Source: Leptogorgia sarmentosa
Taxonomy: Eukaryota
NCBI GenBank assembly: GCA_964658305.1
Contig: OZ210884.1
Span: forward strand, 4,340,001 to 4,404,000
Direction of reading: 5' to 3'
Length of the DNA stretch: 64,000 nt
A model generated the notes under the pieces. It saw nothing but the letters and a program-made list of their open reading frames with translations, did no database searches and had not been told where the DNA came from. Shown piece by piece: positions 2,675 to 60,645 of this stretch (positions are counted from its first letter, which is position 1; each line of letters starts with the position of its first letter). Position numbers and translations under genes: made by a program.

Positions 2675-4923
2675 ATAACAAATATTGACTGGTGTTATGT
2701 TACCTGTGTGAAAATAATCCTTTCAAGTTTCACTACTTCTGTCTGTTTCACTGACAGGTTAGTTAAGTAAGTGAGGGATTTGCTGACGCAAATGTTGTTT
2801 GTTATGAATTGAAACGAAACCTTTTACTGTAAATTATCAGTCAGGATTCGACGATATTGCGCAGTTGAAACGCAAGTTCCTCATTACAGATTCTTCAACA
2901 AAGAAATCTATTTTATTGTTTTGCTATTCCATCTCATTGGTTTACCTGTTGTAAGTACAAACGATAGCTTGCGTTCCGTATCGCTGATTCTTTCGCATCC
3001 ATACCTTTACTGATGCGATTAGTTGAGTTTTTTAGATATGGTCAATTAGCTGTAGTTCGGTACAGTAGCGAAGTACAATGTTCAAAAAGCGAGTAGCTTT
3101 CGGCTGCTTTCGTAAGGGTAGTTTCTAGCTGCACCGAACAACATTTTTGTCATGCATTAGCAAAGTATAGTTGCTTACTTTTCAAATGTCAGTCAGCGCT
3201 AATCTCTACTTACTTTCATTGCCCTGCACCGTTGCCATGCAAACCAAAGTATAAGTGCTGTAACAAACAACAGAAGTTTGTTGTCAAACCAACACCCTTG
3301 GACTTATATTCTTGGAATTCAAAACATTCTCAAAACCACTACAATACCAGTACTATAATTAAGGTCTAAATACAACATATATTTTCATTCAACTGATGTA
3401 GACTCAATACTAATTACATGAAGAAATAGCTTAGTAGCTACCTTTAATTAATTTTCTCACGAAATCTATTATGTTACGTTTGTACTAGTTTGCTGTCATC
3501 AACTTCAATTAAATAGTCACATTTGATGTGTGTTGAATGATGGTTATCGGAATGAGTATACTGTAACGGCATATGAAATGAATGCATTCTAAGAAACTTA
3601 GAACTGAAATGAATGTTCATTTTTTGAGAATTTGATTTTCCAAAACCAATGTACTGTAATTATTTTGTTTCTGTCTTAAAAACGAAACCTGATTGACATG
3701 GAGCAATGTGCCCAGACAAAACGCTCTGTCATCTTGAAGTTTGAACTCAATACTTGCCTTTTAAGAAATTCAATCCGCGAGATTGTTTTTTTAATATAGT
3801 TATTGTCTTAAATTAAATTAGGATATAGTGTTTAAGTCTAATGTCAACATGTCACAGAGCTTATTAGAAACATCATAGAGAGGCTATTGGCCACATATAA
3901 ACGAGTTCGCGCGATGTGAAGTGGGGAATCTGACATACACACGCAGGGAAGCCCCATCAACACGACCATTCACCTTTCGGCCAGAATATTTTGATCGTAA
4001 TAATGGTGGTCGTATTAGAGGACATACGCAAGCATTTTTAGTTGTTAAAAAAAGTGATCGTAATAAAGAGTTGGTCGTATTAATACGACGTGGTCCTAAA
4101 TGCTTGGTTGTAATAACGCTTCACGTACAACTGAAAGTATTACATTTCGAATGGATTTTCCCCCCTGAAAGTCTGAGGGAGCATAAGGGGCAGAAATGAA
4201 TGTCACACGCAACTTTCACTTGTGTAATCTTAAAAAAACCTGCTTAGCTAGTTTTTCACTAAGCATTCGAGTTTCGGCAATGCCATTTTAGTCTAGCTTC
4301 CTGTTAAGAATATCAGGATGGAAATTAAACAGGTAGAGATTAGAGTAGATAGACGAGGTTGGCAGATAAGTGTATAAGAAGCCGAGTTAGGGCTACCTCT
4401 GATGAAAATACCGGAATGGATTCTCGATACGTTGGGTTTTCAATGCAATTGGCCTTGCATTCGTTTTTATGAAGTCATTTTAGCAAGGGAAACAGGAGTG
4501 GTATTACAGTTGGTTACCGTGAACGTACAATCTTTATAATTATTTTAAGTTGTTTGGTAATTCCATTCGATCGCATTTACACTACTGGCTTGATAAACAG
4601 ACACATGGCCATGAGCATTGAGTTCAATGAATTTGACCGATTAGGAATTGTTCAATATCTGCAAACGTTGTTGGCAACAATTACAATATTGTAAAACATA
4701 ATACGGGTAACAGGCGCAAAATCTGTCAATTAAATTAGTGCATGACGCATGATTGATGAGATTTGAGTGACTAAGAAGGGGGATTGCATGCTGGGCCTCT
4801 TAGTCTATGAAGATTAATTATTTTATAATTATGTGAACATTTTCTTTCTTTCTACACAGACCAGGAACTTTGGTTCTGTCCAACCGCAATTTTTACGAAA
4901 TCGAATAGTACTTGTCTCCCATT

Positions 4924-6938
4924 ATGGCAGAAAAAGGATACTCTAACCAGCCCGCAATGGAGATGGATAAGTTGGAATCCATTTCCAACAAACCACGTCC
5001 AACCGCTAGCGTCATGGGCTCAGGTGATTTTGGCAAGGCGTTGGCAAAGCGACTCTTATTGGCTGGCTATGATGTCGTCATTGGAAGCCGCTCACCAGAC
5101 GCACGTAAAAGCAATCATTTATTCACCTGCAATGTAGTTTCTGTTGAAGAAGCTTCGGATTTCTCCGACGTCATCTTCCTTGCAATTCCCCGTAGAGGTT
5201 ACGACGAAATGATGAAGGCTTTAGGCGAACGCCTTAATGGCAAAATCGTGGTTGACGTCAGCAATCGTACCAAGACGTCCGGCGATTGTGTCTCTCATGC
5301 GGAGTACCTTGCCACTTTGATTCCGGAAGCACGCGTCGTGAAAGGATTCAATGTCATATCTGCATGGGCATTGGAAAATGACATATATGGCGGGAGTCGT
5401 TTGGTTTACATTTGTGGAGATCATCTGGAATCCAAAGAGAAGGTTGGCTTGAATTTTTTTATATGTTATTTTTGTGGCATTATATATTCTTATGTTTCTT
5501 TCATGATCCTCTTTCAAGCATCATCTCATTATTGTTGTCGTTTATTGCTTTTCTGCAATTTCCATCAGGGGCGCCGGAGGCACGGGGGCAGGGGGCAGCT
5601 GCACCCGTTGCCCTTACGGTGCGGGGGCAGTGCGGGGGCAACTCGTTGCCCTTTTCCACATGGAGGATATGAAGGATATTTTATTAATCATGCATTATTA
5701 GCGTTAACAGATGTTTAAATATAATTCAATGTAAAGTAATACGTAAAATAAAATCGGATCGAATTTATTTTATGTAAAATCATCTGTGCAGTGCGGCCCA
5801 GTATCCATATAGGAAAATCTTACCGAACATTACCGCACAGGAACATTTAATGTCTAGAAAAAGATGCCCTTTTTAAATGGCTGCCCCCGCCGCTTCAGGT
5901 GGCTTCCGGCGCCCCTGATTTCCATTGTTGTTTTCCTGCATGCATATTGTTGATGTTTTCATTGTTACTGTTGTTGTCACAACATCGTGGTTGTTGCTGT
6001 TGTAGTTGGTGTTGTTGTTGTTGTGTAGGGTTGCATGCTATTGTTTTTGTGGATTCAAAACTATTTTCCAACTACCTCAGGTTATTGGAATAGCCAGAGC
6101 GATGCAGTTCAACCCTGTCGACCAAGGCTCCTTGAAGATGGCGCATGCAATTGAAAACAAACCTCTCGAGTTATTTCCAAGCTGGCGTGTTGCTTTGGGA
6201 ATGGTTGGCGTCCTTTACGTCATCATGCTGCTGTATTTCGTCCTCAAACGAGTCGTAAAGAAAAGCAAATTCACTGATTTCCCTTTAAAGCGCATGAGCC
6301 TCATCAACGCGTTCTGCGTTATCGGCATCTTGGACATGGTGTACCTCCCAGGATGCATTGCCGCACTGCTGCAGCTGGCGTATGGCACAAAATACCGCAG
6401 GTTCCCGCGCTGGCTTGATTTGTGGATGAAAGCGCGAAAACAGCTTGGTTTGATCGCTCTCATTATGGCCGCCATGCATGGGTGTATGTCGACGCTCTAC
6501 TGGTCACCAGAGTACAAGTCACGTTTGTACATGAAAGACGAAGCAGAAATTCAAGGCGTCACTATTGTCGAGTATAAAAAGATGTACGCTCAGGGTGAAG
6601 CCTTTCTCACTCTCGGAGTCCTGGGACTTACATCGCTGTGCATCCTGGGAGTGACGTCATTACCGACGGTGTTGAACCGCATGAGTTGGCGTGAGTGGAA
6701 TTTCGTGCAGTCTGGGCTGGGTTACTTCGCTCTCATCTGTGCATTATTGCATTTCACTATCTTCTCTTACGAAGGTCTGCCTGAATGGAAATTGGAAGAG
6801 TATTTCTATCCAACCGTTTTGGTTGTTATTATCGGTTACATCAACGTTCTCCTTCGACTCATTCTGCTCCTGCCTTGTATCGCCAATAGAGTGAAGAAGA
6901 TTCGGACAGGATGGGAGAGAGAAAACAGTATTGTTTGA
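4924..6938 (+). CDS. STEAP: STEAP-family metalloreductase (STEAP2/3/4 type: NADPH oxidoreductase domain + 6-TM ferric reductase domain), ~458 aa
   Basis: Exons 4924-5442 and 6081-6938, phase-0 GT-AG intron. Motifs GSGDFG, IGSR, VDVSN, VVKGFNVISAWAL, YLPG, QLAYGTKYRRFPRWLD, RKQLG, heme-ligand His (AAMHG, ALLHF), SWREWNFVQSGLG, IRTGWE. Confidence 0.95.
5566..5917. mobile_element. hAT-type MITE in the STEAP intron (352 bp)
   Basis: 13-bp perfect TIR CAGGGGCGCCGGA. Perfect 8-bp TSD ATTTCCAT at 5558-5565 and 5918-5925. Confidence 0.9.
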
Positions 6939-7153
6939 TATCTTGCATTAATACATGCATGATGGACACAGAAACGCTGAGATATAGTTTAGAAATTAGC
7001 GCTATTAATAAACGTACCCAAATTTAAATTTAGGTTTATACAATGAACTATTGATGAACATACCCAAATAAGGGAACTTAAATTTAGGTTTATAAAATGA
7101 TCGTAAACATTTAACCCTTTAATGCCCATGTATTGAAAATGACGAAAATTGGT

Positions 7154-7416
7154 GAAGTCATCATCGGCAGCCGCTCGTCAGACATTCCGTCACATGCGTA
7201 AAAACAACCCTAGTTTACTCAACTACCATGTTCAGTCTGTGGAAGAAGCTTTGAATTATTCGGACGTCATCTAATTCCTTGCAATCCTTCAAAGAGGTTA
7301 CGACGAAATGACGAAGTCGTTAGGTGCGCGGCTTGATGGTAAGATCGTCGTTGACGTCAGCAATCGTACCAGGGAGTACCTTTCGGAAGCACGCGTCGTG
7401 AAAGGATTCAATGTCA
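7154..7416 (+). pseudogene. Degenerate partial copy of STEAP coding exon 1
   Basis: Aligns to ~5070-5356 (gtcat..gg.agccgctc, gaggttacgacgaaatga, gttgacgtcagcaatcgtacca, cggaagcacgcgtcgtgaaaggattcaatgtca) with insertions, a taa frameshift and two internal deletions. Confidence 0.85.
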
Positions 7417-8256: not shown

Positions 8257-11200
8257 GGCATGCGGAATTAAAATTAACTCACTACATATCATATTTCATT
8301 TCTTGACTGAAGCTCACTGACTCATCTCTTGAGCGGAATATTATCGTGTTTGTTCCTTAAACGCGATTATTTTCTTTGGCATAAAATGTTTCGTAGCTAC
8401 TGAAAACTCTTTTTGATCATTCGGTCAGCCCAGACGCTGTACGCTAGGAATAATAATTAGCTCTACTTTTGGAAAGGTCCAATTTTCTCTGAGTAGAATT
8501 ATATCCTCTAAGGATCGAGTTACAACTACCCTCTGAAAGGTGCACCAAAGGGTATATGAAAAACAACCGTTTTGAAAGGGTTGTCCTTGGGTCAACGAAC
8601 TACTCTTTTGAAGGAGTCAAAACTACTCCGCTGAGCTTTCAGTGCATGCGTTGGCGCTTGAAAAAATGTTATATACTTCTTCAGGGTTTCCAGGTTTTTG
8701 CATTGGCATGCGGAATTAGAGCTAGAGACATATTCATAAACCGTTATTTACCGACTGGAAGAACGTTCGAACTGACGTTATAAGCGGAATATTATATTGT
8801 GTTCCTCCAATGTTTAATCAAGGTAATCTGTCAGATGTTATGTCGGTACTCTAATGTCAAATATGTATGCGTTCGTATTATACTATAGACAAAAATAAAT
8901 TTAAACTATGACATATAACCATCCATTTTCCCCGTCTCCTTGCAATATGAAACCAGTGTAATCTGCAGTGCATAAAGAGGTACGAGGAAATATAAACCTC
9001 TTGCAGCATTTGTAATACATATACATTCGAATACATCTGTTTCACTGGGAAAACAAACGTTAGATGGCAGCAAAATTTGGAACGGTCGAGACAATTTCGG
9101 AAGGCGAGCAACAGGCATTACTTCCGCCGGCTGAAGGTTAGTATGCATTTTATTTAACCACGACGTGACGACGAGAGCACACGGTATAAGAAATTTTGAT
9201 TTTGAATTAGGTTATAGTTTAAACCCTGACAACACAAGCATATACGTTTTATTCAACTCATCATCAGGAATTCGTAAGGAAAATATTTCAAGCTAGCCTG
9301 AAGCAACGAAATAATTACTTGGTGAAAATGAATGTTTATGTTAAAATAAACGTAGTTTGTTATATGTCAATGTCTGCTACTCTATTGTATTTTCGCGCGC
9401 AGCTTCTACTCAAATCTTGGGTTCATCTGGGCTCGTAAATCTCGCTCAGGTGTCCTAGATTGCATTTACGTTGCCGAATTGTCAAATGACTGCCTCGTAC
9501 CCAGGCGTCTCCAAGTTAACCATAAGTGATGATTTTCTAAATTGCTTTTGATTTTCAGATTCTCCTGGAGGATCTATCGACAGCGGAGATTCTGATGATG
9601 GTAAATAATAATAAAACACTTTTGCCAAAAAGTTTCAAGTCGGGCTCGTCTTTCTCAGTTTCTCTCATTGCACATTGTAGTTTACTATGGGTTGTCAATC
9701 CCGAAAAATTTTGCTATACAATGCATCTTTCAGATCATTTTTGTCTTGCGCCCTAGGTTAATCTTTATGTTATGTAAACATAGTATACCCATTAGTATAC
9801 CCATGCTTGCTTGGTTCTTTGGGCCGCTGTTCGTGCCTTTTATAGCAATTTGTATATTTTTTTCTTGGCATTATACAATGCTTCAAAATTTATATTTTTG
9901 TAGTGAGGCACCCAAAAATTCTGGTCGACATGCTGGATGCGAAAACAGCAAAAGTTGAAAACCTCGTAGCAAAAGGTTTCACGGTTAACGGTGGGAAGTT
10001 CCGTGTGGAAACATCAAATGGAGATCTGGCTTACCACATGAAGTTGAAAGAACCTGAAAGATACGACGGCCTCGAGGATGGAGATATAGTGGGATTTTAT
10101 GAAGATGAAAAATCTGGCAAGACGTACATTCAGCTCCTGCGCAGCAACAACATCCATAAGGCATTGCGGAATTAGATTAACTCACTACATAATATCATAT
10201 TTCATTTCGTGACTGACTTGAAGCTGTGTGACCAGAATATTATCGTGTTTCCTTCCTTAAACGCAATGCTTAATCAATTTAATCTGTCCAGTATTTTCTC
10301 AATAAAATGCTTCGTAGGTACTGAAAACTGTTTTTGATCATTCGGTCAGCACAGACGTTGTACGCTAGGAATCAATAATTAATACCGAAAGCTTAATAGG
10401 TCACTGACAATTCAGAAAAGTCGAGAGAAGAGTAGTTTTGTCTCGATTGTCTCTTGTTCGTATACGTTTGTATTCTTGCGTTGTGTGTTTGCGTCTCAAC
10501 AACAATCGAGAGCAGTAAGCGGAGGTTCTTTCAATAGATTACGTTCTGAGCAATGACGGACGATCACACAATAGTTTCTAACATATATTCTTAATTACAT
10601 ATAGTAGCTCTCATTACGCGAGCCCGTTCAACTATATACAAATCATAAAACATTATAAACGTGTAGATGTGTTCAGAGTGCGAGTGTAATCTAAAACCTT
10701 AGTGAATTGTTCTGACCAATAAACTACGAGTATAGGTGCGATTGTTACTGATTGTGCATTAATTTGACGTGTGTGCGTCACTGTGCGATTTATGTTGTCA
10801 AGGTGCGAAATTCGATACCTTTGTAGGTATAGTGTCTGAACAGAACAGTGCTTAATAAGTTCTATCGTCTAATGTAATAATGTTCTGTCGCTATTTCACG
10901 ACAAGTTTTGGGGTCAAAGTAACAAGGTTGGTCTTCGTCCATTGGGTCATTCCATCCTCAAGAGTAGTTTTAACTTTAATAGAAGTCAAAATAACTAAGA
11001 GTAGCTTTAAGAGTAGCTTTACTTTTGGAAAGGTCCAATTTCCTCTGAGTAGAATTAAATCCTCTGAGGTCAGAGGATCGAGTTACAACTACCCTCTGAA
11101 AAGTGTAAAATCGATCATTTCGAAGATTACGCGCCAAAGGGTATCAAAATCAACCGTTTTGAAAGGGTTGTCCTCGGGTCAACAAACTACTAATTTGAAG

Positions 11201-12100
11201 GAGTCAAAACTACTCCGCAGAACTTACATGAACTTGCGTTGGCGTTTGAGAAAATGATATATACTTCTTTAGGCCTTCCAGGTTTTTTCATTCATTCATT
11301 GGCATGCGGAATTAGAACTAGAGACATATTCATAAACCGTTATTTACCGACTGGAAGAACGTTTGAACTGACGTTATAAGCGGAATATGTGTATTGTGTT
11401 CCTAGCTCCTTATATGCGCAATGTTTAATCAAAGTAATCTGTCAGTTATGTCCGGTACTCTATTGTCAAAAATGTATGCGTATGTTCCGGGTTTTAATTT
11501 TCCCTGATATTTAAGCGTCTCCTTGCAATATGAAACCAGTTTAATCTGCAGTGCTCGAAGAGGTATAAGGAAATATGAACCACTTGCAGCAATTGTAATA
11601 CGTATACATTCGAATAGATCTATTTCACTGGGAAATCATACGTTAGATGGGAGCCAAAATTGAAATTTAAATGGTTTAAGTTCTTCCTTATAAAGTGGAA
11701 TGAAGAAAATGAGTCTCCCGTTTGGATTTGGACCGGTCGAGACAATTTCGGAAAGCGAGCAACAGGCATTACTTCCGCCGGCTGCAGGTTAGTCTGTATT
11801 TTATTTGACCACGACGAGAACACACGGCACGCGAAATTTTGATTTTGAATTAGGTTATAGTTTAAACCCTGACAACACGAGCATATACGTTTTACTCATC
11901 CGTCAGGAATTCGTGAGGAAAATGTTTCAAGTCTGAAGCAACAAAATAATTACTTGATGAAAATCAATGTTTATAATAAAATAAACGAAGTTTCTGCTAC
12001 TCTACAGTATTATTGCGTGCGGGTTCATCTGAGCTCGTAAATTCCGTTCAGGAGTCCTAGATTTCATTTACGTTGCCGAATGGTCAAATGACTGCCTCGT
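8257..12100. repeat. Tandem segmental duplication of the upstream region and exon 1 (8257-~9500 vs 10161-~12100)
   Basis: Colinear blocks e.g. ggcatgcggaatta..attaactcactacat, acttttggaaaggtccaatt, gagacatattcataaaccgttatttaccgactggaagaacg, gcaacaggcattacttccgccggctg, tcaaatgactgcctcgta. The second copy has an extra ~600 bp at ~10380-11000. Confidence 0.85.
9064..10175 (+). pseudogene. Truncated third copy (copy C) of the MYRF-like gene; retains homologs of exons 1, 5 and the 5' part of exon 6
   Basis: Segments 9064-9136, 9559-9600 and 9904-10175 match copy A exons 1, 5 and 6. Exons 2-4 are deleted (junction ~9502-9515). Exon 6 is cut at a gcattgc/gcatgc junction at ~10161-10167 where the duplicated upstream region restarts. 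Confidence 0.8.
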
Positions 12101-15100
12101 ATCCGAATTAATTGTTGACATTACACCATCAACATGCACCCTCAATGTAAATATTACATCATCAATGTGAATATTATTTCTTTACACTGCTGTAGGTTTT
12201 TGATTGTTTGATTGAATGACTGATTACACCGAACATTTGACATTAGATGAAGTACTGTAGCGCGTCGAGTGGCTCCTTCCCAATATCCCTTTCGAGTATC
12301 ATGCCCATGCAGATTGGATAGAATTTTGACTCGGTTTGAAAGTGATATTCATATTAGGATCGTAATTCGTAACTGATGTGTGGATGGATGGGGTCTCTCA
12401 TCAGAGCCCCTATATAGCACGCTGATCACTGATTCTACCACGGTTTTCTCTGAGAGTATAGAAAATTAGAAATAACTATTGCGTCAAAATATAAACCAAA
12501 AACACACTGTGCCTGACATGAGCGATATAACAAAATGCGATAATTTCCTTTCATAGTTTTGACTTTTGATGCAATTTCCTGCTGCCTGCACTGGTTACAT
12601 GTAGAAATTCTTGAAATATGAACACACATCCTTTCACGTTTTGTATTCGTTATAAAGACATATTTGATTCCTGAATAAGTATGTTGAGTTTACAAGTACT
12701 ATGAATTTTCTGGTATGAGTATAGCTTTTTGAGACTTTTATCCTGGTCTCAAAATAGAGAAATGCAATGCGCTTACAACTGGAATTGTACAATTTAAATC
12801 AACCCTACAGTTCGGTACGACAGCTCGATACAACACGAAAAAAGTTGTAGCAGCTTTAAAAGCTTACGATAATCGATAGCGACGATTGCATGCGACAGTC
12901 GTAAGCAAAAGTGGAACAGTGTAAACCGGCCTTTATACATATTAGATACACTACTTTTTGGCCGTTAACAATTCTGTTGGTGAAGTGAAAATTTGTCTCT
13001 ATTGATCTCAATTGCGTTCTTTGTGTAGCGGCATGCATTCTGCCATATTTGGGCCTGCAAGGGCCAAGGTCGGCAAGACTAGCTTCGAAAGAAGAGACAA
13101 TAAGTGTGCGAACAATAAGTCGATTTTTGTTCTATACCGTCGAGCCTGTAATAATCTTTTTCAATATTACATCAATATTTAATTGAAAACTCACATCTAT
13201 GATGCGCATATTGGATAAGAAGATATGTCAATTTTGCATGTTCCTTTCAGCCAATCTTTCGAGAAGAACGTTTTATCCAAACGAACTGAAAACTTATCTG
13301 TAACTCTCTAATGATGTTTCTTCATTTGCAAATTATTTCAGCGTACGCAGATGTGACATTCAAGGACCTCCACGCATACAAAGTATTTTACAAAAAGCAA
13401 TACAGGAAGAATCACGTGACCAGGCAATTGGTAGTAAATGACGAGAATAGATGGATTAAGATGGAAGTGAGGGCAATTAATTGTCAATTGTTCAAGATAT
13501 ATGGCTGGGTGAGAAGAGTAAAAAGTGCTGCCGAGAAAATGGGTGATAAAAATGGAGACGTTGCTATAAAGAATGGAGACACTGGAAGAGAATTGAACCT
13601 TATAAAAAAAACGGATATACCAATCCCAACTGAAAATGGTTTTTTGGTGAGTCATCATTTTACCTGAATGGTTATATTATTTTGCATTTCGAAAGTGGTA
13701 TTCAATGAAAAACTGATACAGTACCAATCCCAACTGAAAATGGTTTTTTGGTGAGTACCATTTTACCTGAATGGTTATATTATTTTGCATTTCGAAAGTG
13801 GTATTCAATGAAAAACTGATACAGTATCAATCCCAACTGAAAATGGTTTTTTGGTGAGTCATCATTTTACCTGTATTATTTTGCATTTCGAAAGTGCTAT
13901 TCAATGAAAAACTTATACAGTCTCCAAAATTTAAGTCGAAATGTTCTGGCAGAAATTATTCATGCAACGCTATTTTGAAGAACCCAGGGTGTCCCAAAGA
14001 AAGGGGGAACCCGTAGATAATTATGTATTCGAATTCATTAAAAACGAAATCGCTTTGGCATACCACAATAGTACTTCTATTCTGTTTTGCTTTTACTTAT
14101 ACTGTACACAAGATATGATATCCCAGAGGCACAGAAATATCAAGTTCATCAAACTAATGTGAATAATGATGGAAAATTCCATCTTTCACCCCATGAAAAT
14201 ATTCTTACCATTGCACTCATAAACATTCATTATTTGTTATATTAATTTATGCAGGTTCCTTAATCCAACCTAGATATCATTATCTTTCAGAAAATTTTGT
14301 TTGATGATGATGTTTTTTGTTTTCTCTAGCAACCATTTTCAGTGGATCTGCATGAAATATATGCCGGAAATATACCTGGTGAACCTGTGTTTCTTTTGTC
14401 CACATCCGATAATGATAGGAAACTGAACCTGTTCCAGTTAATTATTCAACTGGAGTTCATTGATCATTCGAAGAGTCAAAAATTTGAAAGCCCAATATTC
14501 AATTTGCAGACACTAAAAAAGGAATCAGGAAAAGGTAAACAACAATAGACCTTATTAGTACATTAGTACTAGTCCATTACAGAGCTGATTGAGAAATAGG
14601 CATATACCTTTAGTAGCACGTAAGTACACACCAGGGGGAGGGGTTGTTAATATTTGTGAATAATCAAGCTAAATCATCATTAGAGCCATCAACAGAACAA
14701 AGAAAAAAAAGCAAATATAAAGAAAAAAAACAACATTGTCAAAAGTTAGGCACAACCCTAATGGATTCTTTCCGACGGCTGACATAGTGCCGGCTAATAC
14801 TTAATTTTCCTTATATTGAATGGAAGCATGATACATATCATATCAGTGAATACCATTACTTCCTTTTAAGGGCATAAACGACGTCATAGAGAAGGTGAGA
14901 GTACTAGTGGTGGATATACGTCGTCAGGATATAGTTCTATTCATTTTTATATTATTTACATCGGCAACCTGGAAACGTAGGGTGCTCCAGTTCGTTATTA
15001 CTATCTTTTTTAACCATAAGTGATGATTTCTAAATTGCTTTTGATTTTCAGATTCTCCTGGAAGATCTATCGACAGCAGAGATTCTGATGATGGTAAATA

Positions 15101-22234: not shown

Positions 22235-25200
22235 ATGAGCCATCCCTTTGGATTTGGAACAGTCGAGGAACAACCATTACTTCCGCCAGCTGCAGGTTAG
22301 TTCGTACTTTATCTGACCATGGCGAGAACACACGAGAAACTTGGATTTCTAGCCGGGTTGAAGTTCAGTCTTGGCGAACACCATCATGGATTTGATTGAA
22401 CTTATTATCAAGAATCGCCAAGAGGAATATTTCGAACCTTATCAACCCAAATGACAGAATAATGTCTGAATGAATGCTGAAACATTAATAAATAAAGTTT
22501 GTTATGTCAACATCATCCACTCTAAGTAATATCGCATGTCAGCTTCCTTCTGCTAGACACATCGATATCTAGTGTTGATTTCGGCCGATGAGTCTTATTC
22601 GGGTGTCTATAGATTACACTTTTTAGGTGGCCTAATGTAAGCAAAATGTGATATAATAGTCGTGTTTGAAAATGATAATGATACCACTCTAAAAGCACAT
22701 TTTAGGTCGCAATACGATATCGGCGATGCGGAACAAATAAACATTTACATGTTCCTGTCTTGTCTTCTCAAATGAACTGCTCGTATTGCCGCTTTACATG
22801 GCCATATTGTTATTTTATTCCATGGAAGACGGTCTAACTTGTTGTCTCAGAGGATGTTGTATACCTCTACAGGGTCCCCATGCAGCACAGCAATCGCTGA
22901 TTCCCTCGCAGTTTTAACTGAAGGTATAGAAATAACTATATATACATCAAAGACTATAGACCCTTTCACTATCCAAGCAATAAAACAAAATGACTCAAAG
23001 AGAGTCAAAAGGCTCAAAGAGAATTCACATGAATGGATTTTGCTTAAAATGTCAATTTCTCGTCAAATAATTTTCATGCTATTTCTTGCTGCATACATAT
23101 ATATATTTGAATCTAGAAATATGGTAGATATATATCCCCTCAAAACTTGTATTTGTTGAAAATATCATATTTGGCTCATGAAAATGTTTTACTAACTCTA
23201 CTCTGAGTTTGCATCCTGACACTTCTGCTGGTCGACTTATCTTGAGTGGGACGCCTAAGAGAGGGAACATGTGAAAATTTTGTGTCTTTTATTTCTAATT
23301 TTGTTCGTTTGGAACACATGATATTCAGTGCTAATCGAGCTGGCTTGCGTCGTCAAACGACGATTTTCTTCAGTATTCCTATTGGATTATAGCTATAATG
23401 TGAATTTATTTACGAAAACATTTTCCCACGCTGTGTTCCATTGTCGATCTTCTTGTGATGCATGAATGATCAATGATTGACCAAATAAAAAATTGTATAA
23501 AATTCAATTCTGCAAAGTTTTGATGAGTGACTTAGGTATTTACTGGATTTCTGGCAAAAAACGTGATCATACAAATTAGGAAGGTTTCTAGCAAGATTTT
23601 AGTCCAATCTTGATTGAAACTTCGTTGTAAATTGGATATAAAGACATATAATCGAATTAGTCATTCGACGAATTCAGCTAGCCAAGAAAATAGTTATCGC
23701 GCAGAAGTTGCAAGATCTTTCAAATCATCTTAAAGTTACTAGTGATTGACATGTTGGATGTTTTGTGAAAATGTAAATGGTACCAAAAATATGGGAGCCA
23801 CTACGGCGAGATGAATCTAACTCGGAACATTTCAATTTGCTTAATATTGTATTCCATCCATTAATTATATTTTAATTTGCATGCATTCTATAAATATGAT
23901 CATGACGCATCACCTTGTAGCACGCAGCATTATTTTTTTCTCTTTTATGTGCGACCTCAAGCACGTAGTAATCTTTCTTTATTGCATGATTGTTTCAGTA
24001 ACAACTGATATATGCGATGTAGATGTTGAAGTGATATGGCAATTTTTCATATTATCTAACCAACAATTGTGATGGGGTGAAGATCTCTTCCAATTGAAAA
24101 AATAATTAGCTGCATGCAGGTCCCTCCTAATATCTCGCAATTCCTAAATTGATTTCAGCCTACGCGGATGTGACATTCAAGGACCTCCACCCGTACAAAG
24201 TATTTTACAAAAAGCAATACAGGAAGAATCACGTGACCAGGCAATTGGTGGTAAATGACGAGAAGAGATGGATTAACATGGAGGCGAGGACAATTAATTG
24301 TCAACTGTATAGGATAAAAGGCTGGGTGAGAAGAGAGAGAAAGGCTGCCGCTAGACTGGACGATAAAAATGGAGACGTTCCGATAAAGAATGGAGAAGAA
24401 TTTAACCTTATCAAAGAAACGGACATACCCACTCCAATCCAAGATGGTTTTTTGGTAAGTGATCATTTTGCGTGAACAATTATATCTGCTTTGATATGTT
24501 TGTGATATTAAATGAAAGGCGGCACTTTGCATCAAATCTTTTCATATTGTCTTATCTTGACGTGCTTTTATATCTCGAGTTTTCGATCAAATGTCAATAA
24601 AAATATATGACATAGTGAGCCCCTTTTAAATGCTCGTCACCGAAGTACTCACAGCAATTAATTAATCATCGGCGTGAAACGACATTTCTAGCCTTTTTGT
24701 ATGCGTTGCTTGAAACAAATAAGGAAGCTCGTGGACACTCTCCATCCAGTGTGTGATTTTCGAAAATCACATAAAGCTAAACGTGTGGCCGGCAGACGAA
24801 AGTTGGAAAATTCCACAAACGAGGCTGTATATTAATTGATATCTTCAGCAATCTCTAAAATGCATCATGTAAAGAACAGGAGTATTGGAGCTGCATTTCG
24901 TGAAATGAATACTTCGAATTCGAATACAAAACTAAACAAAAACTGTGCCCTACTGTAGACTCCTAACACTTCTTGTAAATTTGAAGTTTTGTTTTACTAA
25001 ATATGATCACCCAGTTTCACAAGTTTCATCAGGGGTAATAAAAGTTAAAAAAGAGCGAAATGTATTTCTATTCCGCGCGTGCATAGTTACACGCAGTTCA
25101 TGCACTCTCTGTCAAATGAGCCAGTAAGTATTCATCTGCCATCCCCGCCCCGTAGAAAATATTTGATAACAACGATAACATGCCATTCGGTTTCTTAAAA

Positions 25201-28200
25201 TGGCCCATTCGATATTTTCGGTGGAGACAGGCAGGAAATTTTTAGAGATATTAATTTGCATGAGGTAAATCTGCATATAGTTGCGTGAAAAGAGGAAAAT
25301 AGTAAAATTACTTGGACAATATTTTGGACATTTTTTAACTAAACTAAATCAGTTGCCTCTGATAGCTGGGTCGCCAATTACATTGCTGCAGATGCGCACA
25401 TCTTGCAGTCGCTACAGGTCCCTACCTAGACATTAGTTACATTACCATATTCCAGACAATTTTCTTTATTTGCTTCGACGTGAAAAATGATACTATTTTT
25501 TGTTTTCTTTAGCAACCATTTTCAGTGGATTTGCACGAAATATATGAAGGAAATATTCCTGAAAAACCTGTGTTTTATTTGTCTAAATCTGACAAAGACA
25601 GGAAACGGAATCTGTTCCAATTGATCATTCAATTGGAATTCATTGATTGCTCAGAAAGTCAAAAATTTGAAAGCCCGATATTCAATTTGAGAACAATCGA
25701 AACAGATCAACTACGTCGAGGTAAGGAAGAATTTCAACGATTTCTATCAACTATACATCTTTTAATATAATAGCTTAATTAAGATATTCCTAGCCCTATT
25801 CCTTTTGAATTAAGAGAGCATTCCATCAGTAACGTTTCTAGCTCGTCGGCTGTAACATGATCGTACCGCCTAACAGTTTTGCTTACTGGAAACACAATAC
25901 GCATGTCTTCCTTAGATTCATATTAGGTCTTATTGTTATTTCCTTTTAAGGGGTCAAACGACCACATGACGACGAGGAGAATGGCAGCAGTAGAGGTATG
26001 TTGTCAGAACTGTTTTGTCTCTTAGTCAACATTGATTATGAAATAAAGCACAGGAAAAATGAGTATCTATACCCTTTTTTATGGCAATCTAACAGTTATA
26101 CTATATACATGTATGTATTATGTAAAAACAGCAATGCCAATAATACATACTTTTCAAAACGTTCAAAAAGCGGTTGTGAAGTGTAAATTTTTCTCCTCTC
26201 ACGACAAGGAAAAGGTTCATTTTCTATGCGCAGTGATACCCATTTCTAAACAAAGAGCTGGCGTTGCCGCCCTCGTGAAAATGTCGGCTGCATGCACAAG
26301 ATCGCCACTACAATGATCTCTTTTAGCGCTATACCTCATCATGTACTGAATTACTTTTGATTGTTAGGTTCTCCCGGAGGATCTATGGACAGCGGAACTT
26401 TTGACGATGGTAAATATTAATAATTAAAGGCACTTTTGCAGTTTGAAATACGAATCCGCTCTATTGTTCAATTGTTCTTACGAGGGATTGTTTGAGATCC
26501 GATCAGTTGTTAGTACGCTATATTACAATGTTTGTCCTGTGCTAACCCCATTGCTAAATATGTTATGCATGTATTTATATAGGTGTACCTATGATCGGTT
26601 CTTTGCAATTGCAAAGTTATTATCCGCAGACTGAAAATTCAATCTATTTATCCGTAAAACAATCTCTTTGGGATTGAAAATCAATCCGACGGGCGATTGA
26701 AGGAAAAATCAATCTTAAAGGAGTTACTTTTCAATCAAATTTCAATCGAATTAGCTTATTCTTGGCCTGCTATTGGCGCACACGCGATATTTGAGCAATA
26801 TGATTGGCTTAGATTTACAAATCTTAATTTACAAAGATTGAAATGATTCTCAGTCGTCTTTATCGAATGACATATTTTCAATCGAATAGACCTCACCGAT
26901 TATTCGCATCAAACATGAAAACGAGACCATTGGGTAAACGAGAATAATCGGTAAGGAACGGTAAGGTTTTTTGCACACTGAAAGAGTATTTTTCAATCTA
27001 AATTCAATCTATTACACTGAATTATGTTTGAAACTGTTAAAAGATTGAAATTTTCAATGTTTTGAATTAAGAGAGTAATTAGCTATGTACCATATTTCTT
27101 GCAGGAAGGCATCCACAAATTCTGGTTGACATGCTAGATGCGAAAACAGCCAAAGTTGAAAACCTCGTCGCAAAAGGTCTCACCGTTAACAGTGGGCTGT
27201 TCCATGTGGAAACGTCAAATGCAGATTTGGCTTATCACATGTTGTTGAAAGAGCCTGAAAGATACGACGATCTAGAGGAAGGAGATATTGTTGGATTTTA
27301 TAAAGATGAAGAATCGGGCGAGACGTACATTCAGCGCCTGCGCAGCAACAATATCCATAATGCATTGCATGCTGGTGTTGTAAGCCGCTCTCATTGGCTT
27401 GCTGGGAACAAACCTCTTAACGCAGGTAGGATCAAGCGCATGTCACATGTGAATTTATTTGTTAACAATGAAAAAAAACAACAACAAAGATTGAATAGTA
27501 TTTTCATATAAAGTACATGACTGTGTTGGCCCTGTTGGGCGAACGGAACGACAACAACTAACCAATAGCAAAATTTCGTGACCTCGTACCCGTTGGACCA
27601 AGCAGCCAAAAAACAGCTATGATGCATTATTATATGGCTTTTCAAAATTCTCTATTCTGAATACAGCTTCGGATTTCAGGAGTTTGCAACCAGTTTGAAC
27701 GTTTAATTTTAAGATCATTATGATTTTTATAATTATTAGTTTACACATTGCGTTGAGAAACTATCGACCGGACTAAGTATAGGAATGAAACTACATGCAA
27801 TACTGTTCAGACTACAAAGCTGTGCAGTTGGTACAAAACAGCAATGTTGGCGAGATTTCCAGTCTTAGCAAAGAACGAAACGCAACTGTTGCTAAAATGC
27901 AAATCATTTGCTTGAATTGAAAAATTTAATTGCAATTGACCACATCAAAAAAGATGGCGGCATGTACATTTTACCAGAATGCAAAGCGGCCTTGAATCGT
28001 TCGAAAAAGCATAATATTAACTTCGTTTGAAGAATAGACAGAAGTAAATTTCTTTCCATTAGCTATACGCTTCTGGTAATATTTTTACAGTTATATGTAT
28101 TTAGTACCCACACTGTATCCTAGTAAAATGTACATGCCACATTTTTTTTGCCATGGTCAATTTCGCGTTTCTCATTAAGTGATTTACGTGTGCACGTGCA

Positions 28201-31200
28201 TGATCTCAGTATACCACGCATTACGGAGTTTTTTCTCACGATCACGCGAAAGCACTCCGGCAAATATATAAAGCGACATTTACTGTCGGTGGGACATTCC
28301 ACCTAGTGGGCTTGTTCTTAAAATGTAGGTCTTCAAGAAGGCTAAAATTTGACTTACGGTTATTTTCCTGTAAAGTTAACGACGTGTGATTCATATTTTA
28401 TCATTCCTTTTAGCCGCACAGACCGACACAATTTGCGTCATTGGCATCGTAAATGTCAAAGTTGTTGGTAGTGTTGAGAATGGCGAGCGCATCTATGCTT
28501 CCACGACTGACCCTGGTAAAGCGATACCTCAATCTCATATGCCCGTCGGTACGTTTCTCCGCAAGAAACACGTGTTACTTGGCATGGCTATGGAGACCAA
28601 AAAATGCGCAAAGATGCTTGACGAGGTCAATTTAGTCAAATGCTTTGTATGCATCGTCCTCGACGTTAGCCGACATGAACTCTTGGAAGAAATAGAAACA
28701 CTTTACGAAGTAAACCAGAAAAGAACGGAGGAACAAATTAAGGTGGAAAGCAAAAGAACATGGAGAAGTAAGTTCTTTGAAACGAGTTTTGTTAAATCTA
28801 GGAAGAATGTCATTACTGAAAAGTTTATACAAATATAATAGTACATTCACTCTTGGGAGAAAACTACGACAGTAACCGCACTAAAATTTTTTGCATAACA
28901 ATGTTCTTCCACCATGACGATGAAACAATATATGAACGACTACTGCACAATGACAGTACAACAGAATCACATTGAATCCTTCTTAAACTATTCACTTGCG
29001 AATATCGACATGTGTATCATTTCAACCCCGTAATCGCTAGCATACAGTAACCTCGCAGAAAATATACTAGTTTTCTAGTTTATTTTTTTTTGCCGTTGGA
29101 ATCCATGTTTACGTTTTCTTCAATCTGATCGGCTACGCGAGCTGTCCGCGTTTTGAGGCCTGGACAAAATATATTTTTCCCGTACGCACCTCCCATCCAG
29201 TAAATAAGATACATGTAACTAGATTGTTGTCAATGATTCTGAGTAATTGGGTTGCGTGTTAACAAGAGATTATTGTGTTTTAGGATTAAGAGGTTATTTC
29301 ATTGCGGGTATTCTTACCCTTGGAGTTATTATATTCATGTTATATCAGTGGCTAGTTCCAGGATCAATGTTTCGCTACTGGCTCTGTCGTCGCGGGTCCA
29401 TCGCGAATCATGAGATGTTTTATCATTATGTCGACATCAACCAAAAAAGGGTATGTATAGCTACTAAAAATGAAAATGAAAATAAAAATAAAAAGTTCTT
29501 ACGATGGCCGAGAAGGGCCATGAAATATGCATTTTTCGTTTTATTTTCAAAATTACATTCGCCGTTTCTTTCATGGAATTACACTCGCCACTTTTTACAC
29601 AAAATTACACCTGCCACTTTTTTATAAATTTATATAAATTTGTATACAGTTGGAATGCCCCACTTATTTGCAAATTACACTTGCCGGTTTCTTCCAGAAT
29701 TACGCTCGTACAAGCTTATAAGAAATTACATGCAACATTTAATTTTCCATGAAATATCGACAAAAATCCACTTAAAATTTCAATGAAAGTTGATTCTTAC
29801 GTTCGCGAATGAAACTAATTAAATAGGTAGTTTAACGTTGAAGCGTTCATAATACTATACCTCAGTCAATTTTGCACGGAAAATAGCAAATGTTATGTAT
29901 CAAAATCTAAGTTAACCCTTCGTGAATATGTACAATGCATTTTATTTTAGTGCGATAGCTTTTATAGGCCCTACGCTATATGAAATCAAACAGGGTATAT
30001 ATAACGTGCGATGTCCGAAAACTGGATTTTGCGTTCTTTCCTGCGTGATTACCGATTAATTTATGCATAATTGGATATTTGCATTAATTACCAATGCAAA
30101 TTGCAAGCTAATTCCCAAAGGTCCGTAATTACGCAAAGAAATTACGGAAAATCGTTCGTCTCAGCGTGCACCAAATTTCTCAAAACTTGAATAGCTTGTA
30201 TATCATACTCCATATTTTCATCTGATTAAATCAAATTGTGTGAACAAAACTTATTTTTTGCGCGCAAGCCGTTTTTAATGGGCCTTTCTGTAACCACATT
30301 TCCCATTCTAAAAAAGTTTGTTTTTAAAATAAACTTAGAGCTAGATATACCAGAGGGTGTTAAACTACCCAGGCTAACCGAAAGTTTTTGGAAATTTTGA
30401 GCGCTCGTTAGTTTAGATAATGTTTTTCATCAGTAAACTTTTTTTTGATACACCCTGTATAGTTTTTTTTTCGGGACACCCAGTATAATATACTTTCTGC
30501 AATATTGACTGGTTGTTCTAGGACAGAACTTTTCAATAAGTATGAATCAAATTGAATAATTCTGCCTCGAATAAAGGCAAACCGCATTAGGTCCACGGGT
30601 ACAACTAAATATATTGTAGAAAAGGATCGATTATACTGTATGAAGCAAAACAGTTTTTTGATTATAATTATCCTGTGAAATAGTTGCATAATATTTTTAT
30701 ATATTTTAGCATTACCTTGTACATGGCATTGAATTTACATGGGAAGGACTTAAAGAAAAAATGGGATTCAACTTCACACGATGCACCTGCTCTGTTGGTA
30801 AATACACCATTTTATTGTTCTTTATTATATGACTTTTTAAATCATTAATTTTTTATATAATACCTCATTACATGCATTCAGGTCGTTTGATTGCTTAATT
30901 ATGGTCATGTGATATTGAATAGACAGTTCCATCCGTTCCCCCAAGAGTGCAATAGTATTCGTACTATTGCACTCTGTATTTTCAGTAACTCCCATCCTTC
31001 AAACGCTTTTCGTACAGTGATCGCAGTTTATTTACCCCCGATTCTCAACGTCAGGTAAATGCGATTTATATAAAACAAATTATATATAACAAATATTATA
31101 TAAACAACAAGTATTATATAAAACAAATAATGAATGTTTGAGTATACAATGGTTAGGATATTTTCATGAGGTGAAAGATGGAATGTTCTATATAACATTA

Positions 31201-32201
31201 AGAATGTTCTATATAACATGAAGAAATTTCACGTACAGAACAAATGATCAATGTGAAGTACTGTTATTACTTTTATTTACGCGATACATCCAGATTTCGG
31301 GTGATTAAGGCCTTGGCAAGGGAAAATTTTAAACGGAAATCCTTGATTTGATCTTTTAACATTATTAAAAGGTCAAGCTTTCTAAGTTAGTTTGTTGAAT
31401 CTAAGTAACCTTACGTAAAACTAAAATTCCTATTTCGAGAAATTTCAATTTGCATGACTTAGCTGCGTGACATAGCTACAGAAAATCGTCGTCAAACATA
31501 ATTTTATAGCCAATTCATGAATGTCAGACGACGAAGTTAAGGCGAAAGTTTATAAGAAATTGTTTTAAAAATGAATGATTAGAATGGAAATCATCCTGTG
31601 TACACTTTCATATACGAACATAAAACAATATCAAATGAGCAAAACACAGCGGTAATTAACCTTGAGAACTACGTTAATCAAGCTTGTCTGCTACAAAATT
31701 ATTGTTTGTCGCGGCTTGAAACGTGGGCGTCCGTCACGGGACGTGAAAATATCCGTTCTGGCGTTGTCAACAGTGCTTGAACAACGTCTAAAATTCCTGC
31801 TATACTTTTAATAATTATTCATTTTCTTTGAACGATTAACTTGATTGTATTTGATAGCGACGTCCTCTTGTCGCCGTCTCGCATTCGTAAACTCGCTTAA
31901 TACGGTTACTATCCCGTTTCGTGTATAAGCCAGTTCGCAATGAGAATTACGAATTGAGAATTATAAGTTAATAATTTAATTTGTAGAGGAAGATGTGCAC
32001 TATTATATGAACGTGGACCGTTGCGCGTACTATTGGGCTGATGGTGCAGCAGGAAATAACATTGGAGGTCGGAAATACCTTGGAGGATCAAGAGTTTTCG
32101 CCGCTGTTAACAATTGTACAGTTGTTTGTGAGTTAATCGAGAAGGAGGATGACTGGGTTCCAGTTGAAAATCAGACCAAACCGTCTTGCATTTTCGGTTG
32201 A
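22235..32201 (+). CDS. Uncharacterised ~598-aa single-pass membrane protein, copy B (paralog of 11709-18917; MYRF-like architecture)
   Basis: Exons 22235-22295, 24159-24454, 25513-25720, 25951-25995, 26368-26409, 27105-27425, 28414-28767, 29284-29450, 30710-30797, 31987-32201. All GT-AG, total 1797 nt open. Length differences from copy A are all multiples of 3 and exons 5-10 are identical in length. Confidence 0.87.
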
Positions 32202-33887: not shown

Positions 33888-45239
<11,352 letters not shown>

Positions 45240-51251: not shown

Positions 51252-52808
51252 AACCAAAATATTAAAATATTGCAACAAATCAATTTTAATCACACCACTT
51301 TGTGAAATAATGTAAAAACTGGCGTTCGCTCTGATTATGCAACTTGCCATTTACGATATTTCAGGGCTGATCATGGGCTCATCATGATCATTGGGCTCAT
51401 CATGATCATTGGGCTCATCATGATCACAAAACAAATAGCTGCAAAATACTTTATTATTAAAAACCATCAGCCAACAACATGCGAAACGCAAAAATTCAAT
51501 CTGGTTTGGAAAATGTGGCTGTACAATGAAATGTGAAATAAATTCACATGTCATGCTATTATGCATGAACATGACATCCCTTATTTCCTAGAATTTTCAC
51601 AAGGCGTTGGTCAACCGAAGTGGTAAGATTTGATACTTCAGTAGGTGTTATCGATGCTGATACTTTTTTAATAGCATTCCAGAGGTCATTCAAGTTTGTA
51701 AATTGCCTTCCATTGCAGTATACTTTTCTCTTGATGATGGCCCACAATTTCTCGATAGGATTTAAATCCGGGCTATTCGGAGGCCAGCCACATCATCACC
51801 TTGTCGTTGTTGAAGCCAGCTTTTTAAGCCATTCAGAGGTGTACTTCGATTTATGCGCGGGGGCATTGTCGTGCTGGAAAATCATGGTTCTCCACAGGGA
51901 CAGAGGCTGCTCCTCCAACCAAGGCATGAGGTATTTGTTAAGGAGCTCGCAGTAAGATTCTGAATTAATTTTAACCCCTTGCTCGACTTTGAACGGTCCA
52001 ATAATGGAGCCTCCTTTGATTCCTGCCCAAAACATTACCCCTCCGCCACCTTGTTGACGACGCATCCTAACTTCGGGTTGACGACCATGGAGTATCCAAC
52101 CGGACGACCAACCATCCGGTCCATCGAGGGTAGCACGGCACTCATCTGTGAACAACACATTCTTGAAATCTGTCTTCATATACCTTTGAGCCCATTCTAA
52201 CCTTTTCGATTTATGAATTTTGGTCAATGGAGGTTGTTTTATTGGTTTCATCACTTTGGCGAGACTTTTCAGAGTTTGGCATCGGGCCGTTTTCCCCATT
52301 TTTGGGACGCCAGCGTTGTCAAATATTGTTTCACTTGTTGCGTGGGGTGTCTTTGCAATCTCAATCTTTACTTTGCGAGTGTCCCTATGGGATAGCCTTC
52401 TCAAATGGCTTCTTTTTGGCGTTTTTCTCTTGCTTTTGCCAGAAAACACAAATTTCTTGATGGTTCTATGGTCACGATTCATATTTTCCGCTATTTCGAG
52501 CGTACACTTGCCACTGCCTAACATTGACGTAATTTTTAACCGATCAGCATCAATAAGATCTCTGTTCTTGCCCATGTTTGTGTCAAGTAAACTAACTTGC
52601 GTAATGAAGCCGGACGCTTTCAGACGTGACTTATTTTGTTTCTCAAGCATATAATTGTTCACAAATATCATTTTAGCTATTAATATTATGCACTGGACGA
52701 ACAATAGATTCTTTTACCACATGTATGTTTACGTACAGCTATTATTTCCACATTGATTCGTATTGTATAGCTAGAACTTCGATTTGCATAATCAAAGCGA
52801 ACGTACTG
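51252..52808 (-). mobile_element. Tc1/mariner DNA transposon, DD37E (TRT)-like, non-functional
   Basis: Right end reads TA|CAGTACGTTCGCTTTGATTATGCAA on the - strand. The inverted copy CGTTCGCTCTGATTATGCAA at 51323-51342 lacks the terminal bases. Encloses a transposase pseudogene and an 18-bp x3 repeat at ~51375-51425. Confidence 0.85.
51559..52575 (-). pseudogene. DD37E-like transposase with two in-frame stops
   Basis: MGKNRDL...HTH...VLFTDECRATLDGPDGW...RRQQGGGGVMFWAG...FQHDNAPAH...WPPNSPDLNPIEKLWAIIKRKVY. TGA TGA near 51793-51798 arise from a 1-nt loss plus a 4-nt duplication. The repaired frame (KxGFNNDKVMMWPP) gives 37 residues between the second D and E. Confidence 0.88.
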
Positions 52809-57425: not shown

Positions 57426-57558
57426 AACCGATCAAAAACACGAACAAAAAGTAGCCATTTCAATTTCATAAACTCGGTGCAGGTACTTATTAGTATTACT
57501 AGTACTTAACACTAGCGAGTTTAATTGACTCATTCTCAATGACTCATTCTCATCCTTA

Positions 57559-60435: not shown

Positions 60436-60645
60436 TTTCCCTTACGAAAAATACCATGTGTTTCACATGTGGTTCACATGTGGTTCACATGTGGAATTGG
60501 GACAATGACATGTGATTCACATATGATTCACAGGTGAACCACATGTGAACTGAATCACATGTAAAAACCCACATGTGAAACACATGTGAATCATATGTGA
60601 ATTGTTCCAATTACACATGTGAACCTTCGAAAAATCTTTCAGTAA
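60436..60645. repeat. CACATGTG-rich segment unique to GT92 copy 2 upstream region
   Basis: Seven exact CACATGTG plus variants in ~160 bp. The equivalent position in copy 1 (~48620-48890) has unrelated sequence. Confidence 0.8.

What the first reader, a model, noticed from the sequence alone, without database searches (positions are those of the whole stretch)
11709..32201. Candidate new class of membrane-tethered transcription factor: MYRF-like layout built on a phage peptidase-G2-type chaperone domain
Seen: two intact 10-exon paralogs with no signal peptide. Order of parts: beta-rich N-terminal domain (exons 2-3), basic cluster (exon 3/4), Ser/Asp linker, a beta-strand repeat ILVDMLDAKTAKVENLVAKG, then ADLAYH..DLEEGDIVG..AGVVS..ICVIGIVNVKVVGSVENGERIYAS..PGKA..LLGMAME, a coiled coil (ELLEEIETLYEVNQKRTEEQIK), one TM (YFIAGVLALGLLIFILYQWLV) after basic KRTWSKLKR, and a Cys-containing tail with N-x-T sequons (A: NCT, NHT; B: NFT, NCT, NQT). 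Known: the AD(Y/L)AE..GDVV..GVVS..GxVxVKV.G.V..GD.....G.A...IG.A.E pattern typifies the C-terminal intramolecular chaperone (peptidase G2, phi29 gp12 type) of phage tailspikes. MYRF/MrfA use Ig-fold DBD, beta-helix, S74 chaperone, coiled coil, TM and luminal domain to trimerise and release a nuclear fragment. Inference: a parallel solution using a G2-type instead of an S74 chaperone, domesticated with spliceosomal introns.
Basis: partly seen in the sequence, partly recalled or inferred. Interest (0 to 1): 0.93.

Follow-up and report, generated by a model that had tools for sequence, protein, structure and literature searches.

The report
Coral membrane factor, disarmed phage chaperone
Two spliced genes, likely from a soft coral, belong to an undescribed family found in corals, anemones, jellyfish and Hydra that joins a likely DNA-binding domain and a membrane anchor to a phage tail-spike chaperone whose cutting residue is replaced, so it likely rebuilds the design of the myelin factor MYRF from different parts and would need another way to leave the membrane.

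Summary
Observation confirmed. Two intact 10-exon paralogs (599, 598 aa) are spliced in public contigs; a truncated third copy lies upstream. All named relatives are uncharacterised cnidarian proteins. Charge and sequon bias support type II topology. The N-terminal domain is an Ig-fold with conserved K/Q/R residues, weak leads to p53-like DNA-binding domains, and a soluble stand-alone sister clade; DNA binding is inferred only. Best reading: an independently built MYRF-like membrane-tethered transcription factor in which the phage domain trimerises but likely does not cut. Not MYRF. The scan earlier noted a similar G2-plus-membrane design with a NAC-like domain in marine eukaryotes (unchecked notes).

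The parts
11709..18917 (+). Paralog A, 10 exons (11709-11787, 13342-13646, 14330-14534, 14871-14894, 15052-15093, 15837-16157, 16442-16795, 17517-17683, 17966-18053, 18703-18917), 599 aa
   Evidence: 7 of 9 introns skipped in contigs
22235..32201 (+). Paralog B, 10 exons (22235-22295, 24159-24454, 25513-25720, 25951-25995, 26368-26409, 27105-27425, 28414-28767, 29284-29450, 30710-30797, 31987-32201), 598 aa
   Evidence: 8 of 9 introns listed as joints
13344..14521 (+). A exons 2-3: cytosolic Ig-like beta-sandwich (about aa 28-192), likely DNA-binding
   Evidence: model of relative P0022, pLDDT 81; Ig-fold matches Z up to 7.4; feature neighbours COE1, LAG1, SPT23/MGA2, p53 all under 0.9; conserved K, Q, R, Q, R
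14522..15847 (+). A end of exon 3 to start of exon 6: basic NLS-like cluster and Ser/Asp/Pro-rich linker
   Evidence: basic motif in 23 of 31 linkers against 9 of 31 control windows; SP and DSG-type motifs
15848..15955 (+). A exon 6, aa 223-258: short beta-strand repeat, predicted inter-chain (triple beta-helix-like) stalk
   Evidence: periodic hydrophobic pattern; residues 226-266 of P0001 lie in the trimer interface; alignment to 3SUC reaches residue 682 (125)
15956..16689 (+). A exons 6-7, aa 259-408: G2/phi29 gp12 D4-type chaperone fold; D259 = phi29 D692, Y262 (15965-15967) at the place of E695
16699..16785 (+). A exon 7: coiled coil, predicted three-stranded
   Evidence: long helix (55); heptad-spaced contacts 414-437 in P0001 (117)
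17531..17590 (+). A exon 8: single transmembrane segment after a basic stretch
17591..18917 (+). A exons 8-10: luminal Cys-containing, sequon-bearing beta domain, fold unassigned
27224..27235 (+). B exon 6: D258-L-A-Y261, the same altered site
9075..10167 (+). Truncated third copy: exon 1 remnant, exon 5 and the 5' part of exon 6; exons 2-4 and 7-10 absent; likely pseudogene

Best explanation
The two spliced genes encode a predicted type II membrane homotrimer in which a phage-derived G2-type chaperone domain likely folds and trimerises a short beta-helical stalk carrying a likely DNA-binding Ig-fold domain, and because the phage glutamate is replaced by tyrosine the domain likely does not cut itself, so the nuclear fragment would be released by a host protease or the proteasome on a signal. 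Shown: gene structure, splicing, family range among named hits, homology to G2-type chaperones, the Glu-to-Tyr change. Predicted: folds, trimer, topology. Inferred: DNA binding, nuclear entry, absence of self-cleavage, and the release route. The disordered linker with basic, SP and DSG-type motifs is the most likely cut or ubiquitylation region, as in Spt23/Mga2 or NF-kB precursors (recalled).
For: G2 homology: top of 48,161 chains is 3GQH, Z 13.2, rmsd 2.6, 117 residues, model 23-168 on 692-854, next unrelated-function row Z 9.4; 3SUC Z 13.1; 59 viral models at E<=0.001, led by tail and preneck-appendage proteins; the family profile hits an Atu_ph07 frame (E 2e-8) that PF11962 also hits weakly; HHalign 98.1% to short phage G2-type domains (30 shuffles at most 1.1%), and these match the phi29 type at 95.2%. 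Altered site: 3GQ7 ends at S691, 3GQH starts at D692, uncleaved 3SUC carries E695Q; phage ADLAE in 57 of 57 parsed motifs against D-x-x-Y in 112 of 112. Trimer: score 0.88, best control 0.01, runs agree in at least 81% of contacts, pLDDT at least 81; the mark was reached by 21 of 30 solved pairs and 0 of 23 single chains (eukaryotes 17 of 29 and 0 of 30); the Tyr packs on the neighbour chain. Topology: more K/R before than after the TM in 31 of 31; sequons after the TM in 31 of 31; 27% against 8.5% of Asn in sequons. DNA-binding leads: Ig fold, Foldseek rows NFAT, p63, VosA, CEP-1 among the first 50, Atlas neighbours COE1, LAG1, SPT23/MGA2, p53, conserved K-x-Q-x-R and further Q, R, and a 13-sequence clade (support 0.95) of soluble proteins with only this domain and a short basic tail.
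Against: No DNA-binding family is matched above threshold: best Z 7.4 goes to generic Ig/FnIII domains, Foldseek TM-scores are under 0.3, named Atlas hits are under 0.9, Pfam gives none (one LAG1 hit at E 0.096 in 53). D and Y are invariant, which fits a kept chemical role as well as a packing role. The DSG-type motif is in only 10-12 of 31 linkers, is in B but not A, and its pattern was chosen after seeing the data. No conserved S1P-like site stood out. The trimer pass may come from likeness to solved gp12, the job is outside the tool's calibration (three copies), and all models are of relatives (P0011, P0022, P0001), not of A or B. Family sequences are related, so counts are not independent.
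Confidence: 0.43

Rival explanations
1. Self-cleaving after all: the domain cuts before D259 with a rewired site using the invariant Asp, Tyr and nearby His, Arg, Ser or Cys, releasing a beta-helix-held trimer of DNA-binding domains as MYRF does.
For: D 100%, Y 100%, H 86%, R 97%, S 99%, C 95% conserved; the 323-331 loop of one chain touches the residues just before the would-be cut in the neighbour; the whole MYRF order of parts is kept in 31 full-length members; earlier scan notes describe G2-type membrane factors as self-cleaving (96, unchecked).
Against: E695Q is enough to give the uncleaved phage protein; no acidic residue lies at D+1 to D+5 in 32 of 32 aligned sequences; no Ser-Lys motif of the S74 type.
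Confidence: 0.22
2. Not a transcription factor: a never-cleaved trimeric membrane scaffold or receptor whose cytosolic Ig domain binds proteins, the phage domain serving only as a trimerisation module.
For: Best structural matches of the N-domain are generic Ig/FnIII domains; the catalytic residue is changed; a conserved luminal domain could act as a receptor.
Against: The conserved residues of the N-domain are K/Q/R/N; its feature neighbours are mostly p53-like DNA-binding domains; NLS-like clusters follow it; soluble single-domain relatives exist.
Confidence: 0.27
3. The core comes from a trimeric capsid cement/decoration protein (beta-tulip fold), not from a tail-spike chaperone.
For: Cement proteins score Z 8-10; weak Pfam Phage_cement hits, best E 0.0009, under cut-off.
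Against: gp12 scores 3 Z units higher with lower rmsd and higher identity; the ADLA motif, the upstream beta stalk and the 98% profile match are to tail-fibre C-terminal domains.
Confidence: 0.05
4. A diverged true MYRF/MYRFL.
For: Same order of parts and topology.
Against: The core is a beta-rich G2 fold; no S-D-x-R/K-x-K motif in 0 of 32 proteins; no MYRF, NDT80 or S74 Pfam hit.
Confidence: 0.01

Closest known systems
MYRF / MYRFL / Dictyostelium MrfA
   Same: Type II membrane protein; order Ig-fold domain, NLS, beta stalk, phage-derived chaperone, coiled coil, TM, luminal domain; trimer (PMC3742443 and PMC8326128, abstracts and passages read).
   Different: Chaperone is G2/phi29-type, not S74; no Ser-Lys dyad; the N-domain does not match Ndt80; the G2 glutamate is itself replaced; named members are only cnidarian.
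Peptidase_G2 (PF11962), phi29 gp12 D4, and short G2-type domains of Atu_ph07, CP220 and uncultured phages
   Same: Fold (Z 13.2), profile homology (98%), Asp at the cut site, position after a beta stalk, predicted trimer.
   Different: E695 position is Tyr; lacks the roughly 60-residue phi29 insert; is internal and followed by coiled coil, TM and luminal domain; no PF11962 hit on any member scanned.
Spt23/Mga2 and NF-kB p105/p100 (recalled)
   Same: Ig-fold DNA-binding domain held back in a precursor and freed by ubiquitin-proteasome processing; SPT23_MGA2_DBD is a weak Atlas neighbour (0.79).
   Different: No IPT or ankyrin domains; oligomerisation comes from a phage domain; processing is untested here.
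Beta-tulip capsid cement proteins (XM1, Pam3, E217, HFTV1)
   Same: Same broad trimeric fold, Z 8-10.
   Different: Stand-alone capsid proteins without the ADLA motif register, beta stalk or membrane anchor.

Membership tests
MYRF/MrfA | S74 ICA domain with Ser-Lys dyad | tested here: not met
   Motif S-D-x-R/K-x-K (pattern recalled; dyad from PMC8326128 passages) in 0 of 32 proteins; core matches a different, beta-rich fold.
MYRF/MrfA | Ndt80-type DNA-binding domain | tested here: inconclusive
   Ig fold, but no NDT80 Pfam or structure row listed.
MYRF/MrfA | Type II single-pass topology | tested here: met
   Charge and sequon bias in 31 of 31; one member (P0036) has a weak hydrophobic segment.
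MYRF/MrfA | Beta stalk and coiled coil forming a homotrimer | tested here: met
   Prediction only: 0.88 against control 0.01 on relative P0001 (117).
MYRF/MrfA | Autocleavage and nuclear entry of the N-terminal trimer | not testable with these tools
   Needs expression experiments.
Peptidase_G2 (PF11962) | Score over the Pfam cut-off | tested here: not met
   No hit; the phi29 control scores 325 bits.
Peptidase_G2 (PF11962) | gp12 D4 fold and homology | tested here: met
   Z 13.2/13.1; HHalign 98.1% through short phage members, 95.2% from these to phi29-type; the direct comparison was weak, 8%.
Peptidase_G2 (PF11962) | Glu at the E695 position | tested here: not met
   Tyr in 112 of 112 (113); Glu in 57 of 57 phage motifs; 3SUC is E695Q. 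Its naming as the catalytic residue is recalled (Xiang 2009, not held).
Peptidase_G2 (PF11962) | Asp directly after the cut site | tested here: met
   D259 = D692.
p53-like / Ig-fold transcription factors (RHD, COE, CSL, Ndt80, Spt23/Mga2, Velvet) | Ig-type beta-sandwich with long loop insertions | tested here: met
   About 100-112 aligned residues over a 165-residue span.
p53-like / Ig-fold transcription factors (RHD, COE, CSL, Ndt80, Spt23/Mga2, Velvet) | Specific match to a known DNA-binding family | tested here: inconclusive
   Leads under threshold only.
p53-like / Ig-fold transcription factors (RHD, COE, CSL, Ndt80, Spt23/Mga2, Velvet) | Sequence-specific DNA binding | not testable with these tools
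   Needs SELEX, protein-binding arrays or ChIP.

The most novel reading that the evidence does not exclude
Cnidarians carry an undescribed family of Ig-fold transcription factors with soluble and membrane-tethered branches. The tethered branch rebuilt the MYRF design independently by capturing a second, unrelated phage tail-spike chaperone, then replaced its glutamate with tyrosine, turning a constitutive self-cutter into a signal-gated switch or into a protease with new Asp/Tyr chemistry.
Probability: 0.4. Interest if true: 0.92.

Novelty: new variant of a known kind. Interest (0 to 1): 0.78.

Why it matters
MYRF has been the textbook case of a phage tail chaperone turned into a eukaryotic transcription switch. 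This family shows the same layout built from a non-homologous phage chaperone and kept across Anthozoa, Hydrozoa and Scyphozoa, which points to repeated invention of one design. It also exposes a candidate new DNA-binding domain family in Nematostella, Hydra, Hydractinia and Clytia, where knockouts and tagging are routine. The invariant Glu-to-Tyr change gives a sharp test of whether the phage domain was kept for trimerisation or for cutting.

Tried and rejected
Pfam and PHROGs scans of single exons and of full-length relatives gave nothing over cut-off. Sequence searches of PDB with exons and profiles found nothing. Direct profile comparison with phi29 gp12 failed (60: 0.1%; 82: 8%, near shuffles); only the short phage type bridged it. 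No S74 or MYRF chain was listed in any fold search, which does not by itself exclude it. The luminal domain was not folded alone; its best rows were Z 4 or less. No RNA holder was listed; the spliced joints come from laying contigs. No viral contig encodes a close relative and tblastn of phage genomes gave only E>=0.3. The one GTDB hit is a lone exon with a splice acceptor, 82% like the Oculina protein, so I rejected it as coral DNA in a MAG. Searches around the outlier P0099 found one Nematostella protein and no metagenome locus. No whole genome is held, so copy number and the presence of true MYRF in this animal were not checked. Xiang et al. 2009 is not held. Paper searches found no description of the family; the library lacks most subscription papers, and supplements were not read. 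Only the best 150 of 594 profile hits were shown, and 30 of them were looked up for names, so members outside Cnidaria may be missed.
Full report
Observation. The window holds two complete paralogs, A (11709-18917, 599 aa) and B (22235-32201, 598 aa), each of 10 exons with GT..AG introns and no internal stop. Contigs of three runs from one study skip 7 of 9 introns of A and 8 of 9 of B at the predicted places, while two genome-like runs do not; the runs are not on record as RNA, but the joints show spliced forms. A third copy at 9075-10167 keeps only an exon 1 remnant, exon 5 and part of exon 6. The closest named relatives are octocoral (77-81% in exon 7), so the host is likely an octocoral.

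Family. A profile search gave 594 representatives at E<=0.001, of which 150 were shown. Every named member is an uncharacterised cnidarian protein: Dendronephthya, Paramuricea, Nematostella, Exaiptasia, Acropora, Pocillopora, Stylophora, Montipora, Oculina, Hydra, Hydractinia, Clytia, Rhopilema. Many rows carry no name. No Pfam family passes cut-off.

The core is a G2-type chaperone domain. A model of relative P0011 (pLDDT 86) matched the phi29 gp12 C-terminal fragment 3GQH best among 48,161 chains (Z 13.2, rmsd 2.6, 117 residues, starting at D23 on D692), ahead of capsid cement proteins of the same broad fold at Z 9.4; 3SUC scored 13.1. Among viral models the best matches were tail and preneck-appendage proteins (E 4e-10). 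Sequence supports this through a bridge: the family profile hits a 614-aa Atu_ph07 frame (E 2e-8) that PF11962 also hits weakly (E 0.007). From 80 viral loci of that short type (best of 184; 58 distinct), HHalign gave 98.1% to the cnidarian core, against at most 1.1% for 30 column shuffles, and 95.2% to the phi29 type. The direct comparison with the phi29 type was weak.

The cutting residue is replaced. In the PDB the mature gp12 ends at S691, the released fragment starts at D692, and the uncleaved form carries E695Q; that E695 is catalytic is recalled from Xiang et al. 2009, which I could not read. Short phage domains read A-D-L-A-E in 57 of 57 parsed motifs (one further locus was mis-parsed; the search pattern stopped before the Glu). 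The cnidarian proteins read A/G/H-D-I/L-A/G-Y in the same register, with D and Y in 112 of 112 distinct sequences covering the site and no acidic residue in the next five positions in 32 aligned proteins.

Trimer and topology. Residues 226-452 of P0001 in three copies scored 0.88 against a best control of 0.01; contacts agreed at 81% or more and pLDDT was 81 or more; the mark was reached by 21 of 30 solved pairs and 0 of 23 single chains, on eukaryotes by 17 of 29 and 0 of 30, and the pass may reflect likeness to solved gp12. The interface covers the beta repeat, the Tyr (packing on the neighbour's G344/I345) and heptad-spaced coiled-coil positions. All 31 full-length proteins have more K/R before than after the hydrophobic segment and at least one sequon behind it; 27% of Asn there lie in sequons against 8.5% in front. 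This supports N-in, C-out topology; the sequences are related, so the counts are not independent.

The N-terminal domain. A model of P0022 (pLDDT 81) is an Ig-like sandwich with long insertions; best Z is 7.4 to generic Ig/FnIII domains. Foldseek lists NFAT, p63, VosA and CEP-1 among many antibodies, all with low TM-scores. The Atlas feature search gives COE1, LAG1, SPT23/MGA2 and p53 domains at 0.75-0.83, leads only. Its conserved residues are K, Q, R, Q, R and N; a basic cluster follows in 23 of 31 linkers against 9 of 31 control windows. A clade of 13 soluble proteins (support 0.95) has this domain alone with a short basic tail, like Ndt80 beside MYRF (recalled). I put DNA binding at about 0.65.

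Mechanism. Most likely (0.43): the chain inserts as a type II protein; the G2-type domain and coiled coil bring three chains into register and fold the beta stalk; with Tyr in place of Glu the domain holds the trimer but does not cut; a host protease or the proteasome frees the DNA-binding part on a signal. Linker SP sites (24 of 31, shuffle mean 13.7) and [DS]SG-hydrophobic motifs (10 of 31, shuffle mean 1.0; in B, not A; pattern chosen after inspection) are a lead toward phosphodegron control (degron consensus recalled). Rivals: rewired self-cleavage (0.22), favoured by the invariance of D, Y, R, S and C; an uncleaved scaffold or receptor (0.27); cement origin (0.05); true MYRF (0.01).

Comparison and novelty. 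It works like MYRF in layout (PMC3742443 and PMC8326128, abstracts and passages) but is not a member: no Ser-Lys motif and a different chaperone fold. It is a homolog of Peptidase_G2 but fails that family's score and Glu tests. A 2026 screen for membrane-bound regulators (PMC13294678; abstract, passages and section 27 read) does not mention it in those parts. Searches found no description, within a library that lacks most subscription papers. The scan's own unchecked notes report G2-plus-TM factors with a NAC-like domain in marine eukaryotes, so the G2 design may have arisen more than once; I did not test them. Verdict: real, new variant of a known kind, interest 0.78.

Noticed in passing
proteins P0084, P0087, P0092, P0096, P0097, P0102, P0109, P0111, P0117, P0120, P0126, P0252: A clade of soluble 190-350 aa anthozoan proteins (Pocillopora LOC113666517, Paramuricea) made of a variable N-terminus, the same Ig domain and a short basic tail, without chaperone or TM: a candidate undescribed transcription-factor family.
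   Followed up: partly
protein P0099: An unnamed Ala/Gly-rich protein with the same Tyr-type G2 core and a coiled coil but no Ig domain or TM; it may be non-cnidarian, which would date the Glu-to-Tyr change earlier.
   Followed up: partly
window 16442-16795 and 28414-28767: Exon 7 is 97% identical between A and B (6 synonymous changes in 117 codons, against 18 in 106 for exon 6), suggesting gene conversion.
   Followed up: partly
window 4909-7416: A STEAP-like metalloreductase gene (name recalled from the sequence) with a duplicated fragment at 7153-7416 next to the truncated copy, so the region went through tandem duplication.
   Followed up: no
window 13620-13880: The end of A exon 2 with its donor site is repeated three times in tandem in the intron.
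   Followed up: no
window 39987-40343, 51796-52713, 55065-63336: A receptor tyrosine kinase exon, a Tc1-like transposase frame and two tandem glycosyltransferase-like genes (names recalled from the translations).
   Followed up: no
PDB 8h2i_cU; BFVD A0A481YT87: G2-like matches also appear in a 1343-aa chain named P22 and a Marseillevirus protein, so eukaryotic viruses are a possible route into the host genome.
   Followed up: no
L144:1495-1812: GTDB MAG Lentisphaeria UBA2565 holds a contig with a coral exon of this family: likely host contamination.
   Followed up: yes
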